From the IMG/VR virus record IMGVR_UViG_2531839528_000015: 32,429 bases of DNA, one strand, 5' to 3'. Under the pieces are notes generated by a model. That model did no database searches and was not told the DNA's origin. It was given only the letters and a program-made list of their open reading frames with translations. The first letter of the stretch is position 1. Every line of letters starts with the position of its first letter. Of the stretch, positions 1-10,769 are shown piece by piece. The translations under genes and the position numbers were made by a program. This stretch comes from a virus (lineage: Duplodnaviria; Heunggongvirae; Uroviricota; Caudoviricetes).

Positions 1-452
1 AACACCAGCAAACAGATAAAAAAGGGCCAGCCAATTGGCCAGCCCTTCTTAACAGGATGTCGCTTAAGCGAAATCTTAGTTAAGACGCTCCCAATAAAAC
101 CACATAAAAAACATATAATTATAATAAAAACAATTAGTTAATTTAATTTTTAATGCAGTGAATTGCAATATTCTGCAACCTCCGCCGCCACTTTGCCGCC
201 ACTTAAAGCTTTATACCACACAGACTTTAGTATACCCGAGTGAAACGCTAACACATGAGGTAGTTGGAAAATTTCCGTATATGTTGTAATATTGATACGC
301 ATTATATGATTTTTACCTGATATAATGTAATTATTAGCTTCAAAATTATTTTTGCACGAATCAGGTATTACCAAGTAGTTGTCAGTTTTTAAAAACCCAA
401 CATCCTAAAATTAGCATTGTTTTTTAACCACAAAACATCCACGGAGAAGAAC

Positions 453-1262
453 GTGTCAAAAAAGGATACAATCCAGATTATCGATATCAGGATGCAGAGA
501 CCAATCATAGCAAGAATAGAAGAAGAAAATTTAAATTTGACATTGCAAATGTCAGATAAAGCCACATTATCTGGTGCGACAGTTAGTTTTTTCACCCCAA
601 ATAACGTTTCTATATTCTTATCCTCAGCAAAAAAAGAGCTCTCAAAATCCAATTCTATATATAAAAGTCTTTTTGGAAAAATACACAAAACCAAACATAA
701 AAACTTTAAAATTTCCGACAAAGACCTGCCGAGACTCTATAATTACTTTGAATCAATTCAGACGGCCATTATTTCTATGTATACTGCAATTGAGTCTTTT
801 GCAAATATATGCATACCACATGATTATGTTTATGAAAAAAACAATGCCAAGGGAATCAAAGAATCCTATAGCAAAGAGCTAATTGAGCGATATATACCAA
901 CAAGTGAAAAAATAGATAAAATCCTACCGTCTATTTTAAATTGTGATTCGCCTAAAGGTTCAAAACTATGGCAAGATTTTAAAAGCCTTGAGTCACTTAG
1001 AAATGACATAATTCACCCCAAGACAACAAAGAAAAACACAGAAACAAAAGAAGACTCATCTTTTTTATGCATTTTACTATCAGATGACTTTATAAAAAAA
1101 GTTTCCTGTGGATTTGATTTGGTATCTTATTTTTGCAAACAAGACACTACTCATAGTCTTTTCCCAATGGGTTTCGGTGAAATTGAACTTAAACCTGTCC
1201 CAATTAAAGCCGGTGACTTTGAAAAAGTTGATGATCATGATGAAATAGAATTACCATCATAA
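453..1262 (+). CDS. Hypothetical AT-rich accessory protein next to the integrase 3' end, with a possible HEPN-like Rx4H motif
   Basis: ORF-track frame 417..1262 opens with TTG. An in-frame GTG at 453 is preceded by GGAG at 443-446, so 453 is the preferred start; the first in-frame ATG is at 492. Translation is Lys/Asn/Ile-rich, unlike the backbone. Motif R-N-D-I-I-H at residues 195-200 (nt 999-1016). Confidence 0.5.
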   Translation: MSKKDTIQIIDIRMQRPIIARIEEENLNLTLQMSDKATLSGATVSFFTPNNVSIFLSSAKKELSKSNSIYKSLFGKIHKTKHKNFKISDKDLPRLYNYFESIQTAIISMYTAIESFANICIPHDYVYEKNNAKGIKESYSKELIERYIPTSEKIDKILPSILNCDSPKGSKLWQDFKSLESLRNDIIHPKTTKKNTETKEDSSFLCILLSDDFIKKVSCGFDLVSYFCKQDTTHSLFPMGFGEIELKPVPIKAGDFEKVDDHDEIELPS

Positions 1263-2441: not shown

Positions 2442-2780
2442 TTATTCCCAAAGTGCTGTTGCAGCATCCATTACAGGATCCAAAGGAATTTTTACGCCTG
2501 CATACTCCGGGCTATCTTTCCAAACAGTATCAATATTGCTCCCCTCAAGCTTTCCAGACTTTACTCCATCAATCGCAAAACCATTTAATGGGTATCGGTC
2601 ATCTGTTGCTTTGTCGTACACAAAGGCATATTTACCGTTGACACAAGACACCGTAGCTTTTTCAAAAGTTAACGGCCAATCCTCACCAAACTTAGCGCCA
2701 TCTAAATCCTGTGTTTTTTCAGCGGCTGAGGCTCCAAAAGAAAGGGTAAGAAGCAGAGCTAAAAAGAGTTTACATTTCAT
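2442..2780 (-). CDS. Small secreted or periplasmic protein (moron), possibly DUF2511/YebY-like
   Basis: The track ORF 2442..2852 overlaps the repressor gene. The internal Met at 2778-2780 begins a typical signal peptide MKCKLFLALLLTLSFGASAA, and a mature domain of about 90 aa follows. The YebY resemblance is from memory only. Confidence 0.55.
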   Translation of the reverse strand: MKCKLFLALLLTLSFGASAAEKTQDLDGAKFGEDWPLTFEKATVSCVNGKYAFVYDKATDDRYPLNGFAIDGVKSGKLEGSNIDTVWKDSPEYAGVKIPLDPVMDAATALWE

Positions 2781-2788
2781 AATGTCCC

Positions 2789-3649
2789 TTACACGTGTTT
2801 TTCCAATGTGAAAACTACAGCCCCGGCAGGAGTAATGTCTGTAATGTTGCATTCAAACTCAGCAGACTTATTTGACAACCTGACTTTTCCACCGGGCAAG
2901 CGAATTACATCAAAAACATCAAGAGCGCCGTCGATATCAATTAACCAGCGACCATTACTTATATTCGAAGCAGAACAGTCGACAAGCCAAGAGGCAGCTA
3001 CACCGTCAACAAAAATCAATTCCCCTGAGTTAGAAGGAATCATTGAGGGGTCAGGATGCCACGTTCCTGCATCCTTAAGCTCACCAGATTCAAGACGAGA
3101 TTTTTTAATAGAAAAACCAGATGTGACATCTTCCCTGTTAGCTCGCATTTGCCCCTTGCCTGTTGCTAACCATTCCAGTGACGTATCGGTATCAAGAGCG
3201 CATGTAACAACAACATCACCAGGGAAAAAATCTCGCCTTACCCATGTGCTAATTGTGCCAGAGGAAATGCCGAGCAAATCACCGAGCTCCTTTTGCATGG
3301 TAAAGCCATACGCATCAAGAATCCTACGCAAAACGGTTTTACCACCATTCGTCATAATCTCGTCATAAAGCTCTTTGCCTTTTAACTTGCAACTGGCTCG
3401 CTCGTGATTTGCATTTGCAAGTTCTCCATTTACAAGCCAATTGATATCAGCTCCCGTGTCAAGACAACACCTAACTATGACATTGCCAGGTATTGCATCA
3501 CGCTGAACCCAGCCGCTAACGCTGTGTTTAGCGATACCTAGCAGGTCAGCCAAATCCTTTTGCATCTTGACCCCATAGGCTGACATTAAGCGTTCCAATA
3601 CGCCGTTCGTTGCACTAACACGCCACTGAACATCAAGCTCAGAACTCAT
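2789..3649 (-). CDS. cI: Phage 186-type CI repressor with tandemly duplicated N-terminal HTH domain
   Basis: 286 aa. Two internally repeated segments align: GVLERLMSAYGVKMQKDLADLLGIAKHSVSGWVQRDAIPGNVIVRCCLDTGADINWLVNGE and TVLRRILDAYGFTMQKELGDLLGISSGTISTWVRRDFFPGDVVVTCALDTDTSLEWLATGK. They are followed by a CI C-terminal-like domain. No S24 peptidase Ser/Lys motifs recognised. Divergent from the apl-like gene. Confidence 0.8.
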   Translation of the reverse strand: MSSELDVQWRVSATNGVLERLMSAYGVKMQKDLADLLGIAKHSVSGWVQRDAIPGNVIVRCCLDTGADINWLVNGELANANHERASCKLKGKELYDEIMTNGGKTVLRRILDAYGFTMQKELGDLLGISSGTISTWVRRDFFPGDVVVTCALDTDTSLEWLATGKGQMRANREDVTSGFSIKKSRLESGELKDAGTWHPDPSMIPSNSGELIFVDGVAASWLVDCSASNISNGRWLIDIDGALDVFDVIRLPGGKVRLSNKSAEFECNITDITPAGAVVFTLEKHV

Positions 3650-5711: not shown

Positions 5712-7934
5712 TTGGCTGTTCAATTCGCTTATCCGTGGAACGTCCCACGGTCGGCAATCTCCAGCCCATACCTTACTTATGAGCAACAGCATCGCCGCGA
5801 CCGTATGTTCGCGGCTTTGCTGCATGCAAAAAAGGTGCTTTCTCTCCAGCCCGACTGCGTGCGGTTAGATGTTTATCGCACTGCTGCGGTGCTGGAACAA
5901 AATCAGGGTAGTCAACGAGCCAATGCATTTTTAATCAGCTTCTGCAAAAAGGCATTGCCGCGTCTTGAACTGGTCGCAAAAAAATACGAATGCGCTGGTA
6001 TCAACAGCAAGGTATCAACCGCTGTTTTTGGAAGTCATTTTGATACTCAGCAAATGCAATATCTGTCGTCACGCATGGTTAATATGGTCGCCCGATATAA
6101 CCGTCTCCCGGACATGTCGCGCGCTGATGTTGACCTGTTGGCCGCTGATATTGCTAATTTCATTCGTGGTGAACTTGCCAACATTAATGACCACGGATTC
6201 GGCGAGCTTAAAACGCTGTACACCTGGTATATTCGTGCTGGCTTTATTTCCCTCCAATTCAACGTTATCCCACCACATTGGGAGCGGGTTGAAAAAAAAT
6301 ATGTCGGTGCGGATGAAATCGCACCGGCTATCGCCAAAATGTTTAACGATGGGTGGTGGCGCGGTCGTTTGCGCCGTGTAGCAGCTACGTGGCGCGAACA
6401 CCTGCAAATTGCAGTCGGCAACGTCAGTAAGAAAAAAAACACTTACGCGAGTAAAAACTGCGTGACTGACTGGCGTGAACAAAAGCGCCGCACTCGTGAA
6501 TTTCTCAAAGGTCTGGATCTCGAAGACGAAGACGGCAACCGTATCAGCCTAATTGAAAAATATGATGGCTCAGTTGCTAACCCTGCGATTCGCCGCTGTG
6601 AGCTCATGACCCGCATTCGTGGGTTTGAAAACATCTGTAATGAGCTCGGTTATGTCGGTGAGTTTTACACTCTAACCGCGCCGTCAAAATATCACGCCAC
6701 GACTAAAGCCGGTTACCGTAACAGCAAATGGAGCGGTGCCAGCCCGGCTGACACGCAAAACTATCTAACCGGTATCTGGGCGCGTATCCGTGCCAAACTA
6801 CATCGGGAAGATGTCCGTATTTTCGGTATTCGTGTCGCCGAGCCCCATCACGACGGCACTCCACACTGGCACATGCTGATGTTCATGCTGCCGGAAGATG
6901 TTGAATATGTTCGCTCCATCGTCCGTAAATACGCATGGAAAGAAGACCGCCACGAACTGAAAAGCGATAAATCCCAAAAAGCACGTTTCCACGCGGAGTC
7001 CATTGACCCGGAGAAAGGCAGCGCAACCGGCTATGTTGCTAAATACATTTCAAAAAATATCGACGGTTATGCTCTCGATGGTGAAACCGATGATGAAAGC
7101 GGTGAGCTGCTGAAAGAGACAGCCCCCGCCGTTTCAGCATGGGCTGCGCGCTGGCACATCCGTCAGTTTCAGTTTATTGGTGGTGCGCCGGTGACGGTTT
7201 ACCGTGAGTTGCGTCGCCTCGCTGATACCGAAACCGCGCACGGTCTGAGCGTTGAGTTTGCCGCCGTCCATGATGCCGCCGACGCTGGTGACTGGGCTGG
7301 TTATGTTAATGCTCAGGGTGGGCCGTTTGTCCGTCGCGATGATTTACAGGTGCGCACACTGTATGAACCGCGTACCGAGCTTAATCAGTACGGTGAGGAA
7401 ACGGTATGTATTAAGGGGGTCTACGATTCCTCCATAGGTGCAGGAAGCCCGATTTTAACCCGGCTCACTCAGTGGAAGATTGTTCCGAAGCGTGCTGTTG
7501 ATTTGGCCGTTGACCTTCAGGACGGCAAAGCCGTCCCTCGGAGTTCTGTCAATAACTGTACGGGAAGCGAAAGCGATCCACCGATACTGGATTTAACAAA
7601 ACCACTGAGTCGGCGTGAAAGACGAGAATTGACCAACCGACTCAGGAAGCAAAAGCCAGCAGCACGGCGAAAATTCATCCACGGAACGGATGAGCAAAAC
7701 GCAGCTATAGCTAAAACTATCGATGAGATACATCTGACAACCGGCATTAATATCAGCCGGGGCGAAGCCCTGCACCTGATGGCCGGTGGTAAAAGTTGTT
7801 TTGATGGTAAATGGCTACGCGGAACGGCCAAAGGAGAAATATTTTCCGCAGCACCATCGCATGAGGCTAAAGCTCGGAAAATCCTTAATCGTGTTGCGGC
7901 GATGGCTGAAGCATCAAAACCAATACATGAGTAA
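5712..7934 (+). CDS. A: Replication initiation endonuclease (P2 gpA-like, rolling circle)
   Basis: 740 aa. HWHMLMF motif and the tyrosine pair in YVAKYISKNIDGY. TTG start at 5712 with GGGGG at 5701-5705, tightly coupled to the upstream stop. Confidence 0.88.
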   Translation: MAVQFAYPWNVPRSAISSPYLTYEQQHRRDRMFAALLHAKKVLSLQPDCVRLDVYRTAAVLEQNQGSQRANAFLISFCKKALPRLELVAKKYECAGINSKVSTAVFGSHFDTQQMQYLSSRMVNMVARYNRLPDMSRADVDLLAADIANFIRGELANINDHGFGELKTLYTWYIRAGFISLQFNVIPPHWERVEKKYVGADEIAPAIAKMFNDGWWRGRLRRVAATWREHLQIAVGNVSKKKNTYASKNCVTDWREQKRRTREFLKGLDLEDEDGNRISLIEKYDGSVANPAIRRCELMTRIRGFENICNELGYVGEFYTLTAPSKYHATTKAGYRNSKWSGASPADTQNYLTGIWARIRAKLHREDVRIFGIRVAEPHHDGTPHWHMLMFMLPEDVEYVRSIVRKYAWKEDRHELKSDKSQKARFHAESIDPEKGSATGYVAKYISKNIDGYALDGETDDESGELLKETAPAVSAWAARWHIRQFQFIGGAPVTVYRELRRLADTETAHGLSVEFAAVHDAADAGDWAGYVNAQGGPFVRRDDLQVRTLYEPRTELNQYGEETVCIKGVYDSSIGAGSPILTRLTQWKIVPKRAVDLAVDLQDGKAVPRSSVNNCTGSESDPPILDLTKPLSRRERRELTNRLRKQKPAARRKFIHGTDEQNAAIAKTIDEIHLTTGINISRGEALHLMAGGKSCFDGKWLRGTAKGEIFSAAPSHEAKARKILNRVAAMAEASKPIHE

Positions 7935-8008
7935 TTCATATCCATATCATGCACATACAGCAATCGCTCTATTCGTTTTTTTTCTTCCCATCTTTTGCCA
8001 ATACGTGC

Positions 8009-8028
8009 TACTGTATAAATATACAGTA
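8009..8028 (+). promoter_or_regulatory. LexA (SOS) box overlapping a promoter
   Basis: tactgtataaatatacagta is a near-perfect CTGT-N8-ACAG palindrome. A -35-like TTGCCA sits at 7995-8000 and a strong GGGAGG Shine-Dalgarno at 8036-8041. Confidence 0.7.
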
Positions 8029-8047
8029 ACCCTGTGGGAGGGATTTC

Positions 8048-8230
8048 ATGGTTGGCGAACATTTCAGCCGAACGCAGCAAAAGTGGGCTTGTGTGCAATT
8101 TATTGCCGAGGTATCTCTGATTGCAAACTGCAAGCCATCAGACTTAAAGCTCGCGCTCACTCTCATTGCAGACCTAGCAAACAGCGAGAATAACGAAACC
8201 GAAGATGATAATTTTTATAAGGCTGATTAG
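8048..8230 (+). CDS. Small SOS-controlled protein, possibly the N-terminal part of a Tum-like antirepressor
   Basis: 60-aa ORF directly behind the LexA box and GGGAGG. It ends at TAG 8228-8230 and is in the same frame as the DinI-like ORF that starts one codon later. Confidence 0.45.
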   Translation: MVGEHFSRTQQKWACVQFIAEVSLIANCKPSDLKLALTLIADLANSENNETEDDNFYKAD

Positions 8231-8233
8231 ATT

Positions 8234-8467
8234 ATGAGAATCAATATCACGTTGGATAAAGAGCAAAAAATTAGTCAGGCAACATTGGATGCACTTGAGG
8301 CTGAACTGTACCGCAATCTTCAACCTATTTACCCAAAGACTGCTATCCGAATTCGCAAGGGCTCCGCTAATGGCGTTGAACTAAGCGGTTTGAAACTGGA
8401 CGAAGATAAAAAACGAGTAATGGAAATCATGCAGCAGGTATGGGAGGACGATAGCTGGCTGCATTAA
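8234..8467 (+). CDS. DinI-family protein
   Basis: MRINITLDKEQKISQATLDALEAELYRNLQPIYP...EDKKRVMEIMQQVWEDDSW follows the E. coli DinI pattern (MRIEVTI...DALAGEL...EDKQRISEILQETWE). Confidence 0.8.
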   Translation: MRINITLDKEQKISQATLDALEAELYRNLQPIYPKTAIRIRKGSANGVELSGLKLDEDKKRVMEIMQQVWEDDSWLH

Positions 8468-8469
8468 CA

Positions 8470-8534
8470 AACGCCGCCGGTGCTGAAACTTGCTTTCAGT
8501 GCTGGCGGGGTTGAACAACTCGCACCGCGAGGCG
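8470..8534 (+). repeat. 65-bp stem-loop repeat, copy 1
   Basis: aacgccgccggtgctgaaacttgctttcagtgctggcggggttgaacaactcgcaccgcgaggcg. Begins 3 nt after the DinI-like stop. A 15-bp stem forms only as + strand RNA because it uses G-U pairs. Confidence 0.7.
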
Positions 8535-8662: not shown

Positions 8663-8872
8663 ATGCATCGACTACCGGGCGAAATTCCGCAGCACAAAAC
8701 TAAAAGCATCAAACTGATGGCCATCGTTCATCGTCTGCAGCAGATAATGGTCAATGAGAATTTGACACCCGCCGAGCTGGTCGGGTGTGCCGAAATAGTC
8801 AGGGATAATTACGGCAAGCTGGATAGCATCAGCAAGCCGACACATTACTCACCGCCACCACGTCGACCATAG
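8663..8872 (+). CDS. Hypothetical small protein (cassette between the two repeats)
   Basis: 69-aa ORF with GAGGG seven nt upstream of the ATG. Confidence 0.45.
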   Translation: MHRLPGEIPQHKTKSIKLMAIVHRLQQIMVNENLTPAELVGCAEIVRDNYGKLDSISKPTHYSPPPRRP

Positions 8873-9005: not shown

Positions 9006-9200
9006 ATGCAAAATCCCCTTTCATCGAAAAATGACCCGTTTGCCGATTGGGCAAAGAATCTGACTTTAATGGCTTTAAATAACGACCTGAGCTCTCGCGA
9101 GGTGGAAAGCTACACCGCAAAAATGGTCGGGCAGGCCGGTAAAGATGAGCTATCAGTCGTTATCAAACACCTGTTAAATCACATCAGAATGCGCAAATAA
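9006..9200 (+). CDS. Hypothetical small protein
   Basis: Track ORF 8916..9200 starts inside repeat 2. The internal ATG at 9006 with GAGG upstream is more plausible (MQNPLSSKNDPFADWAKNL...). Confidence 0.4.
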   Translation: MQNPLSSKNDPFADWAKNLTLMALNNDLSSREVESYTAKMVGQAGKDELSVVIKHLLNHIRMRK

Positions 9201-9764: not shown

Positions 9765-10769
9765 CTAATTTACATGTATGTAGAGTTCACCGTCGCCAGA
9801 CCAATCGGGACACTCTAAAACAAGCCCAAACTGCTTGAATATTTCATCAATGATTATTGTTATCTCCCGAAAATCACCAAAACCTGTAATGTGCTGGTCA
9901 TTAAACTTCCCATAAAGATTCTGAAAAGCAATGCCTAATTCTGATAATTGATATCTTATCTTTGAGTTGGATAGTGTAAGGGATAGCTTTGGATCGTATT
10001 CTTTAATATTGATGTTTAGAGAATGGACATAACCCATCGCATAAGCATAAGAGTTGATGATTAGCCTGATACGTTTTTTTACTTCAAGATACATGTCATT
10101 CAGAGAAATATTACCGTACTTATAACCCCAGATGAGTTTTTCAATCTCGTCAGATACTTCATTTACAACAGTGTCAAGATTCTCTAAAAATAAATCGACA
10201 GTTTCTTGAGGGGCAGACCCCGAAGACATGTAATTAGCGAGATATTCAGACCATGCACGCGTGGCTGAGATAAGAAGCGCGCTACCATACTCGTTGACTG
10301 TAAAGTTTTGGGCTAAGCATGTTAGTAAGTTTTTTTCATGTACGTGCACTAATTCATGGTGAATGCGATGGATGACTGCGAGGTATCCTTCTTCTTTCAG
10401 TTTTAAGAAGCTACCATCATTGAAAAGCTCAACAAAAAAATCAATCGATAGCACAAGGGTATATTCTTCATATAGCCCATCATTGCCAATTTTTGTTACT
10501 AACTGCCCGACGGCTGCGCCCTGTTTGCTATTGGTAAATGAACTAGGGGATTTGTGTTGGTAAGAGGATGTTACCTTTTGAAGAGCTTCACTGAAGTTAT
10601 AGGAAACAATCACGCATTTTAATTTGGAGATATCAAGATTGAGATTCTTTGTTAAAGCTCGGATAGCTTCTAGTGTGAAATTACCGATATTATTTGCTTC
10701 TTGCTCAGTAGCGAAACCTTCGAGGGTTATTTTAAAATCAGTTTCCAAAATATTAATCTCCGCGCCCAT
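9765..10769 (-). CDS. Hypothetical AT-rich 334-aa protein with an HExxH motif, between cos and Q (candidate defence or exclusion cargo)
   Basis: ATG at 10767-10769. Asn/Ile/Leu/Glu-rich translation. HRIHHELVHVHE at residues 134-145 (nt 10344-10358). No Walker A motif and no transmembrane segment seen. Confidence 0.7.
   Translation of the reverse strand: MGAEINILETDFKITLEGFATEQEANNIGNFTLEAIRALTKNLNLDISKLKCVIVSYNFSEALQKVTSSYQHKSPSSFTNSKQGAAVGQLVTKIGNDGLYEEYTLVLSIDFFVELFNDGSFLKLKEEGYLAVIHRIHHELVHVHEKNLLTCLAQNFTVNEYGSALLISATRAWSEYLANYMSSGSAPQETVDLFLENLDTVVNEVSDEIEKLIWGYKYGNISLNDMYLEVKKRIRLIINSYAYAMGYVHSLNINIKEYDPKLSLTLSNSKIRYQLSELGIAFQNLYGKFNDQHITGFGDFREITIIIDEIFKQFGLVLECPDWSGDGELYIHVN

What the first reader, a model, noticed from the sequence alone, without database searches (positions are those of the whole stretch)
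7990..8467. LexA-box-controlled antirepressor-like module split by an in-frame amber codon
A near-perfect LexA box (tactgtataaatatacagta) overlaps a promoter just downstream of gene A. It is followed by a strong Shine-Dalgarno sequence, a 60-aa ORF, TAG at 8228-8230, one codon, and then a DinI-family ORF in the same reading frame. As I recall, phage 186 is SOS-induced by the LexA-controlled antirepressor Tum, whose C-terminal half is DinI-like. This locus therefore looks like a Tum-type gene interrupted by a stop codon, or a naturally bipartite version. The repressor here lacks recognisable RecA-autocleavage motifs, so induction would depend on this module.
Basis: partly seen in the sequence, partly recalled or inferred. 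Interest (0 to 1): 0.6.

Follow-up and report, generated by a model that had tools for sequence, protein, structure and literature searches.

The report
Known two-gene Tum prophage-induction module
This is the already described LexA-controlled tumA/tumB operon of a PSP3-like (P2/186-family) prophage in E. coli: a small antirepressor gene followed by a separate DinI-like gene, which is a natural two-gene arrangement and not a broken gene.

Summary
There is a 19/20 LexA box at 8009-8028, a GGGAGGG Shine-Dalgarno, a 60-aa ORF (8048-8230) ending in TAG, one codon, and then an in-frame 77-aa DinI-family ORF (8234-8467).

The locus is 95-96% identical to Salmonella phage PSP3. GenBank AY135486 already annotates the two ORFs there as tumA and tumB. 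Lemire et al. 2011, citing Bunny et al. 2002, state that PSP3 and Fels-2 have tum split by a stop codon, and that the upstream PSP3 gene carries the antirepressor activity.

The 60-aa protein is homologous to the N-terminal half of 186 Tum. Both match phrog_1993, and hhalign gives E 4e-5, although pairwise BLAST finds nothing.

None of 111 related loci has the two ORFs fused. About half lack the DinI gene altogether. Stop codon and frame vary between lineages. TAG retention in the DinI-linked clade is no more than neutral drift predicts. The pseudogene and programmed-readthrough readings are therefore unsupported.

The repressor is a 186/PSP3-type CI without an S24 autocleavage domain, and in the phage collection it co-occurs exactly with TumA.

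Verdict: real and correctly read, but already known. Low interest.

The parts
2789..3649 (-). CI immunity repressor (286 aa), the presumed target of TumA
   Evidence: It has two Pfam PF07022 HTH domains plus the PF16452 C-terminal domain and no S24 peptidase. It is 98% identical to the annotated cI of PSP3, and the same phages that carry this CI type carry TumA.
5805..7934 (+). Gene A (replication endonuclease), the upstream neighbour that fixes the synteny with 186 and PSP3
   Evidence: ORF list. RefSeq annotates it as 'replication endonuclease' in a 100% identical E. coli locus. The PSP3 and 186 annotations agree.
7985..8014 (+). p95-type SOS promoter: -35 TTCCCA at 7985-7990, 18-nt spacer, -10 TACTGT at 8009-8014
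   Evidence: It aligns column for column with the annotated p95 promoter of phage 186 and with PSP3. The generic promoter scan did not call it, so the assignment rests on homology.
8009..8028 (+). LexA (SOS) box TACTGTATAAATATACAGTA overlapping the -10
   Evidence: 19/20 match to the consensus, unique in the window, chance expectation 0.01. The CTGT-N8-ACAG core is kept upstream of tumA in 29/29 genome loci and 78/79 viral loci.
8036..8042 (+). Shine-Dalgarno GGGAGGG for tumA
   Evidence: Read directly from the sequence, 5 nt before the ATG.
8048..8230 (+). tumA: 60-aa antirepressor candidate, stop TAG at 8228-8230
   Evidence: 98% identical to the annotated TumA of PSP3. It matches phrog_1993 at E 1e-31, the same family as the 186 Tum N-terminal half. 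The family is a conserved ~60-aa free-standing ORF across Enterobacteriaceae. The AlphaFold2 model is a helical hairpin with pLDDT 68.
8234..8467 (+). tumB: 77-aa DinI-family protein
   Evidence: Pfam DinI at E 7e-24. 47% identical to 186 Tum residues 71-145. It matches E. coli DinI (PDB 1GHH) at E 2.6e-9. PSP3 annotates it as tumB. Its Shine-Dalgarno is weak (AAGG, 11 nt upstream), and the stop-3 nt-start spacing suggests translational coupling; this last point is inference.
8470..8512 (+). Strong stem-loop just after tumB, at the position of 186 terminator t95a; it has no U-tract
   Evidence: RNA fold of -31.8 kcal/mol, z -4.6. The terminator scan did not call it. The 186 annotation places the partial terminator t95a at this position. 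Function is inferred from position only.

Best explanation
The locus is the SOS operon of a PSP3-like (Eganvirus, P2/186 family) prophage of E. coli. The proposed mechanism is as follows.

1. In a lysogen, host LexA binds the box that overlaps the -10 of the p95-type promoter and keeps the operon off.
2. DNA damage activates RecA, LexA cleaves itself, and the operon is transcribed.
3. The first cistron, tumA, makes a 60-aa helical protein homologous to the N-terminal half of 186 Tum. It binds the non-cleavable CI repressor and stops it binding its operators, so the lytic promoter fires and the prophage is induced.
4. The second cistron, tumB, is a separate DinI homologue. It is probably translated by coupling to tumA. 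It most likely modulates RecA filament activity and SOS timing, and is not needed to inactivate CI.

The two-gene layout is the normal, inherited state of this lineage. The single 146-aa Tum of phage 186 is the same two modules joined into one polypeptide.

Shown here: the anatomy, the homologies, conservation of the LexA box, the absence of fused forms, and the co-occurrence of TumA with this CI type. Inferred from 186 biochemistry and from a reported personal communication on PSP3: LexA binding, TumA-CI binding and the role of TumB.
For: - **Identity with PSP3.** The locus is 95-96% identical to PSP3 over the whole 546 bp, and the ORFs are annotated there as tumA ('similar to 5' end 186 tum; UV induction of prophage') and tumB ('similar to dinI and 3' end of 186 tum').
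- **Literature.** Lemire et al. [quoted passage not shown] Lavigne et al. [quoted passage not shown]
- **Homology to 186 Tum.** TumA and 186 Tum residues 1-61 both match phrog_1993. hhalign gives E 1e-4 and 4e-5. TumB matches the 186 Tum C-terminal half at E 5e-28.
- **Regulation.** The promoter and LexA box align with the annotated 186 p95, and the box is unique in the window.
- **Census.** Of 111 TumA loci, none is fused. All loci with upstream sequence but one keep the LexA core. Of the 109 loci beyond the window and PSP3, 53 have no DinI gene within 1.2-1.5 kb.
- **Selection.** Twenty of 60 TumA residues are invariant across genera while synonymous sites turn over.
- **Repressor.** CI has no S24 domain. 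The seven distinct phages that carry TumA are exactly the seven with the top CI matches.
- **186 internal start.** 186 itself makes a DinI-only product from an internal GTG at the position where tumB starts.
Against: - No experiment on this prophage, or on TumA itself, is available in the searchable literature. The antirepressor activity of PSP3 TumA is known only as a personal communication cited second-hand.
- Pairwise BLASTP finds no similarity between TumA and 186 Tum, so homology of the N-terminal part rests on profiles.
- The generic promoter scan does not call a promoter here.
- The TumA structural model has only moderate confidence (pLDDT 68).
Confidence: 0.88

Rival explanations
1. 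The locus is a 186-type single tum gene recently inactivated by a nonsense (amber) mutation. On this reading it is a pseudogene and the prophage is non-inducible.
For: The two ORFs are in the same frame and only one codon apart. Together they cover both halves of 186 Tum. The close relatives of 186 almost all carry the fused 146-aa form (79/80 loci).
Against: - None of 111 TumA-type loci is fused, across many genera.
- All protein-database relatives listed, the best 120 of 208, end at the same C-terminus. The longer entries that were inspected are N-terminally over-extended gene calls.
- TumA is under purifying selection and often stands alone, still behind a LexA box.
- tumB has its own ATG.
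- PSP3, which has this arrangement, is a viable phage that the literature groups with the UV-inducible tum-carrying phages.
Confidence: 0.02
2. The in-frame TAG is a programmed leaky stop. Low-level amber readthrough would make a 139-aa TumA-TumB fusion equivalent to 186 Tum, with a function distinct from the two separate proteins.
For: All 50 sixty-codon loci with the stop-3 nt-ATG junction and a DinI-type start, 23 of them distinct sequences, keep TAG and the same frame. TAG is the rarest stop codon in enterobacteria (own knowledge). The codon after TAG varies (ATT, TTT, GTT, ATC) while TAG does not.
Against: - Within that clade, synonymous purine sites changed only 0.73 times on average, so zero changes at the stop is what neutrality predicts.
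- Outside the clade the stop switches freely between TAG, TAA and TGA (9 changes).
- In more distant lineages tumB is out of frame, with gaps of 2, 13, 17 and 94 nt, or follows TAA.
- Half of the loci have no tumB at all.
- The PSP3 antirepressor activity is reported to map to the upstream gene alone.
Confidence: 0.04
3. The DinI-like TumB, not TumA, is the effector of induction, acting for example through RecA. TumA would then be an accessory or leader peptide.
For: DinI proteins bind RecA filaments (own knowledge; the structure match to DinI is). PGAP and PHROGs give TumA no function.
Against: - CI has no RecA-dependent cleavage domain.
- In 186 the DinI-only products are annotated only as modulators of SOS induction, and inhibition of CI DNA binding is assigned to full-length Tum.
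- Many prophages keep LexA-controlled tumA without any DinI gene.
- TumA type tracks CI type, whereas DinI alleles are swapped behind an identical TumA.
Confidence: 0.05

Closest known systems
tumA/tumB of Salmonella phage PSP3 (GenBank AY135486; Eganvirus PsP3)
   Same: The position after gene A, the LexA box, the Shine-Dalgarno, the TAG-ATT-ATG junction and the frame are all the same. TumA is 98% and TumB 99% identical, and CI is 98% identical.
   Different: There are only point differences. The host is E. coli rather than Salmonella, and other parts of the prophage are mosaic: about 89% identity over about 75% of the compared stretch.
Tum of coliphage 186 (146-aa LexA-controlled antirepressor, p95 SOS operon)
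   Same: The genomic position, promoter and LexA box are the same. The N-terminal module is homologous (phrog_1993, hhalign) and the C-terminal module is DinI-like. 186 also makes a DinI-only product from an internal start at the point where tumB begins. Both have a non-cleavable CI.
   Different: 186 has one polypeptide with an extra linker of about 8 residues, whereas here there are two cistrons. The N-terminal modules share only about 32-34% identity over the 32-34 aligned columns. The CI here has two HTH domains (286 aa), whereas 186 CI aligns as a single-HTH protein at about 32% identity.
Split tum of Salmonella prophage Fels-2
   Same: [quoted passage not shown] 2002).
   Different: It was not examined directly here. 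Fels-2-like N-terminal proteins of 63-64 aa found in viral contigs belong to the 186-type sequence branch, end in TAA or TGA, and had no DinI gene within 1.2 kb.
dinI-gfoA/gftA LexA-controlled antirepressor operons of the Gifsy prophages
   Same: They are LexA-repressed operons that pair a small antirepressor with a DinI homologue, acting on repressors that are not cleaved.
   Different: The gene order is reversed, with dinI first. No sequence relationship between those antirepressors and TumA was tested or detected here. The phage type is lambdoid.
E. coli DinI (PDB 1GHH)
   Same: TumB aligns over its full length at E 2.6e-9 and is a Pfam PF06183 member.
   Different: TumB is phage-borne and co-transcribed with an antirepressor. 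Its effect on RecA is untested.

Membership tests
PSP3-type tumA/tumB SOS operon of 186-like (Eganvirus) prophages | Located immediately downstream of replication gene A, near the right end of the phage genome | tested here: met
   Gene A ends at 7934. The portal gene lies about 2.4 kb downstream. The order is the same as in PSP3 and 186.
PSP3-type tumA/tumB SOS operon of 186-like (Eganvirus) prophages | LexA box overlapping the promoter -10 | tested here: met
   19/20 consensus box at 8009-8028, unique in the window. It aligns with the annotated p95 and LexA site of 186.
PSP3-type tumA/tumB SOS operon of 186-like (Eganvirus) prophages | Separate ~60-aa TumA ORF followed by a separate DinI-family ORF | tested here: met
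   RefSeq annotates two CDSs in identical E. coli loci.
PSP3-type tumA/tumB SOS operon of 186-like (Eganvirus) prophages | Cognate 186/PSP3-type CI repressor without a RecA-stimulated autocleavage domain | tested here: met
   PF07022 (two copies) plus PF16452, no S24 domain. 98% identical to PSP3 CI.
PSP3-type tumA/tumB SOS operon of 186-like (Eganvirus) prophages | TumA inactivates CI and causes SOS-dependent induction | not testable with these tools
   Only second-hand reports are available. This needs genetics or biochemistry.
186 Tum (single-polypeptide antirepressor) | One ORF of about 146 aa that carries both modules | tested here: not met
   A TAG at 8228-8230 separates the modules, and none of 111 TumA-type loci is fused. 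By contrast, 79 of the 80 closest 186-type loci are fused.
186 Tum (single-polypeptide antirepressor) | N-terminal module homologous to Tum residues 1-61 | tested here: met
   phrog_1993 is hit by both proteins, at E 1e-31 and 1e-22. hhalign gives E 4e-5. Pairwise BLASTP is negative.
DinI family (Pfam PF06183) | Full-length match above the Pfam gathering threshold | tested here: met
   84.3 bits against a cutoff of 24.2, E 7e-24. DinI structure 1GHH is matched at E 2.6e-9.
LexA (SOS) regulon | CTGT-N8-ACAG operator in a promoter | tested here: met
   The core is conserved in 29/29 genome loci and 78/79 viral loci.
LexA (SOS) regulon | LexA binding and de-repression after DNA damage | not testable with these tools
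   Inferred from 186 p95.

The most novel reading that the evidence does not exclude
The conserved in-frame TAG-NNN-ATG junction of the PSP3 clade may allow a small amount of amber readthrough. One locus would then yield three products: TumA, TumB and a 139-aa 186-like fusion. The fusion could tether the antirepressor to RecA filaments or tune the timing of induction.
Probability: 0.04. Interest if true: 0.4.

Novelty: already known. Interest (0 to 1): 0.1.

Why it matters
It matters little as a discovery. The arrangement has been in GenBank (PSP3 tumA/tumB) and in the literature since 2002-2011.

The practical value is for annotation. RefSeq PGAP and PHROGs still call TumA 'hypothetical' or 'unknown function'. 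About 1.5% of complete E. coli genomes (81 of 5426) and many other Enterobacteriaceae therefore carry an unlabelled SOS-inducible antirepressor.

The census adds a modest evolutionary point. The antirepressor module is autonomous, the DinI partner is optional and is swapped by recombination, and the fused 186 Tum is one lineage's variant.

Tried and rejected
- **Pairwise BLASTP and tblastn of TumA against 186 Tum.** No alignment was found. Profile methods were needed.
- **Generic promoter and terminator scan.** It found no promoter and did not call the post-tumB hairpin. The promoter assignment therefore rests on alignment with 186 p95.
- **Reading Bunny et al. 2002 (PMC151935).** The paper is not held. 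Literature searches for tumA/tumB returned only noise apart from Lemire 2011 and two papers with passing mentions.
- **Selection on the TAG codon.** None was detectable.
- **Fold search with the TumA model.** Not run. A 60-aa helical hairpin at pLDDT 68 would give meaningless matches.
- **PADLOC on TumA and its neighbours.** Nothing relevant was found.
- **Unexplained discrepancy.** The protein-database search with the 186 N-terminal half listed mostly short proteins of 63-91 aa and no 146-aa entries among the top 120. Yet 79 of the 80 closest IMG/VR loci are fused 146-aa genes. I did not resolve whether this comes from how that database clusters or indexes its entries.
- **Fels-2 itself.** It was not recovered from the phage collection with the 186 N-terminal query, so its arrangement is cited and not verified.

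Full report
**Observation**

- Gene A, a P2 A-type replication endonuclease, ends at 7934.
- The 20-mer TACTGTATAAATATACAGTA lies at 8009-8028. It differs from the palindromic LexA consensus at one position.
- It is the only match with three or fewer mismatches in the 32-kb window. Shuffled sequence gives an expectation of 0.01.
- A GGGAGGG Shine-Dalgarno at 8036-8042 precedes the ATG at 8048.
- The first ORF encodes 60 aa and ends in TAG at 8228-8230.
- One codon (ATT) follows. The ATG at 8234 then opens a 77-aa ORF in the same frame, ending at 8467.
- The second ORF is a clear DinI-family protein: Pfam PF06183 at 84 bits, E 7e-24, and E 2.6e-9 to the solved E. coli DinI structure 1GHH.

**What the window is**

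The window is a PSP3-like prophage (genus Eganvirus, P2/186 family) in Escherichia coli.

- The 546-bp locus is 100% identical to the chromosomes of E. coli strains JKHS016 and E1739. It occurs in 81 of 5426 complete E. coli genomes, always on the chromosome.
- Over about 25 kb the window is 97% identical to phage vB_EcoM-613R3. It is about 89% identical to Salmonella phage PSP3 over about 75% of that length.
- The order is integrase, CI, an ORF in the position of 186 apl, CII, gene A, this locus, cargo genes, portal. This is the 186/PSP3 order.

**It is already annotated and described**

- In PSP3 (GenBank AY135486) the two ORFs are annotated as tumA ('similar to 5' end 186 tum; UV induction of prophage') and tumB ('similar to dinI and 3' end of 186 tum'). 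The TAG-ATT-ATG junction is identical.
- Lemire et al. 2011 (PLoS Genet, PMC3121763) write that 186 Tum looks like an antirepressor fused to DinI. [quoted passage not shown] This is attributed to G. E. Christie, a personal communication cited in Bunny, Liu and Roth 2002.
- Lavigne et al. [quoted passage not shown]
- I could not read Bunny et al. 2002.

**Relationship to 186 Tum**

- The 186 record annotates the p95 promoter, a LexA site overlapping its -10, and tum (146 aa). The tum entry has nested in-frame products, including a GTG-initiated DinI-only protein.
- TumB aligns with 186 Tum residues 71-145 at 47% identity, E 5e-28. It begins at exactly the residue where that internal 186 product begins.
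- The promoter region aligns closely with 186 p95. This puts the -35 at 7985-7990 (TTCCCA) and the -10 at 8009-8014 (TACTGT), inside the LexA box. A generic sigma-70 scan does not call this promoter by itself.
Pairwise BLASTP and tblastn find nothing between TumA and 186 Tum. Profiles do find the relationship.
- A 24-sequence TumA alignment matches 186 Tum residues 14-45 without gaps: 34% identity, hhalign E 1.2e-4.
- Profile against profile gives E 4e-5.
- Independently, both TumA (E 1e-31) and 186 Tum residues 1-61 (E 1e-22) fall in the same third-party family, phrog_1993.
- The shared core is a helix with the motif A-L-x-L-I-A-[DE]-[LI]-A and a conserved cysteine about 8 residues upstream.
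- AlphaFold2 models TumA as a two-helix hairpin (helices 8-25 and 30-50) at moderate confidence, pLDDT 68.

**Split gene or two genes: a census**

- In one representative genome per species (GTDB), 29 loci from about 15 genera encode a TumA relative. All are free-standing ORFs of about 60 aa. All have a CTGT-N8-ACAG core about 35-40 nt upstream, or 69 nt in Pantoea.
- In those 29 loci the stop codons are TAG, TAA or TGA. Only 9 of the 29 have a DinI gene downstream.
- Where DinI is present outside the PSP3 clade, the spacing and frame differ: gaps of 2, 13 and 17 nt, out of frame. One locus has TAA plus a 3-nt gap and a frameshifted dinI.
- In IMG/VR, 46 of 80 TumA loci have the TAG-3 nt-ATG-dinI arrangement. 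Thirty-three have TumA only, one has a 94-nt gap, and none is fused.
- Several TumA-only loci retain a stump of the tumB start. This points to repeated loss of tumB.
- All protein-database relatives listed (the best 120 of 208 hits) end at the same C-terminus. The 74-93-aa entries I inspected are gene calls extended upstream through the LexA box.
- By contrast, 79 of the 80 closest relatives of the 186 N-terminal module are fused 146-aa genes. A further set of 21 loci of that branch are N-only proteins, 20 of them 63-64 aa.
- The PSP3-type locus is therefore a stable two-cistron operon and not a recent nonsense mutant. The 186 fusion belongs to a sister branch.

**Is the amber codon special?**

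- All 50 sixty-codon loci with the 3-nt junction and a DinI-type start (23 distinct sequences) keep TAG.
- On a neighbour-joining tree of that group, synonymous purine third positions in tumA changed only 0.73 times on average. No change at the stop is therefore the neutral expectation.
- In the remaining loci the stop codon changed 9 times.
- Together with the variable frames, this gives no support for programmed readthrough. It is not strictly excluded.

**Target and specificity**

- The repressor (2789-3649, minus strand) has two tandem Phage_CI_repr HTH domains, the Phage_CI_C domain and no S24 peptidase domain.
- In the phage collection, seven distinct phages carry a TumA homologue: 613R3, PSP3, SEN1, RCIP0057, Midge, SI22 and SW9. 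These are exactly the seven with the best matches to this CI (74-100% identity).
- The one weak TumA hit, vB_YenM_31.17, is the next CI hit. Phages with the 186-type N-terminal module have CI proteins only about 30-36% identical.
- This co-variation fits an antirepressor whose N-terminal module is matched to its repressor.
- DinI alleles, in contrast, are exchanged. The identical TumA protein (WP_000232651.1) is followed by two different DinI proteins in different E. coli genomes.

**Mechanism, with what is shown and what is inferred**

Shown:
- the operator, promoter and cistron anatomy;
- the homologies;
- conservation of the LexA box;
- the autonomy of tumA;
- the TumA-CI co-occurrence.

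Inferred from 186 biochemistry (cited) and the PSP3 personal communication:
- LexA represses the operon.
- SOS induction releases it.
- TumA binds CI and blocks its binding to operators.
- TumB modulates RecA and the SOS response.

Also inferred:
- tumB translation is probably coupled to tumA, given the 3-nt gap and a weak Shine-Dalgarno placed 11 nt upstream.
- A strong hairpin at 8470-8512 (-31.8 kcal/mol, z -4.6, no U-tract) sits where 186 has the partial terminator t95a. Its role is unknown.

**Verdict**

The module is an already known feature of PSP3-like prophages, so novelty is 'already known' and interest is low. The main residual value is that current automated annotation still labels TumA as hypothetical.

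Noticed in passing
window 2789-3649 (-): The CI repressor is 286 aa and carries two tandem copies of the Phage_CI_repr HTH domain before the CI C-terminal domain. 186 CI matches each copy separately. The same architecture is found in PSP3 CI (98% identical).
   Followed up: partly
window 9765-10769 (-): A 334-aa ORF of low G+C (about 0.37) lies between the SOS operon and the portal gene, at the usual cargo position of P2-like phages. It has no Pfam or PADLOC hit and matches only phrog_11743 (unknown function). It contains an HExxH-like motif (HELVH). It could be an uncharacterised accessory or defence gene.
   Followed up: partly
window 417-1262 (+): A 281-aa ORF sits in a very AT-rich stretch (G+C 0.31-0.34) just outside the integrase end of the prophage. 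It has no Pfam hit and only a weak HEPN-type PADLOC hit (RTasHEPN, E 1.3e-4).
   Followed up: no
window 2442-2852 (-): A DUF2511 protein with a signal-peptide-like N-terminus is encoded between the integrase and cI. It may be a lysogenic-conversion gene.
   Followed up: no
window ~8274 onward; L268 1200-1430; L004 1687-1911: tumB is mosaic. The identical TumA protein (WP_000232651.1) is followed in different E. coli genomes by two DinI alleles that are only about 47% identical. The similarity breaks about 40 nt into tumB, after the conserved MRINITLDKEQK start. Forty-four of the 81 E. coli hits do not cover most of the query, and the partial matches listed end there.
   Followed up: partly
L235, L226, L232, L234 (just after the tumA stop): Several TumA-only loci keep a stump of the stop-NNN-ATG junction, or of the tumB start (for example TAG ATT ATG AGA ATT AAT ATC), and then diverge. 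This suggests repeated deletion of the DinI gene.
   Followed up: no
window 8663-8872 and 9006-9200 (+): Two small conserved ORFs of unknown function (phrog_11386 and phrog_2454; PSP3 orf37/orf38 region) follow the hairpin. They may be co-transcribed from the SOS promoter, as orf97 is in 186.
   Followed up: no
P0001, P0002, P0010 and similar database proteins: Many public gene calls for TumA are extended upstream through the LexA box and Shine-Dalgarno (for example '...LLYKYTV...'). This is an annotation artefact.
   Followed up: yes
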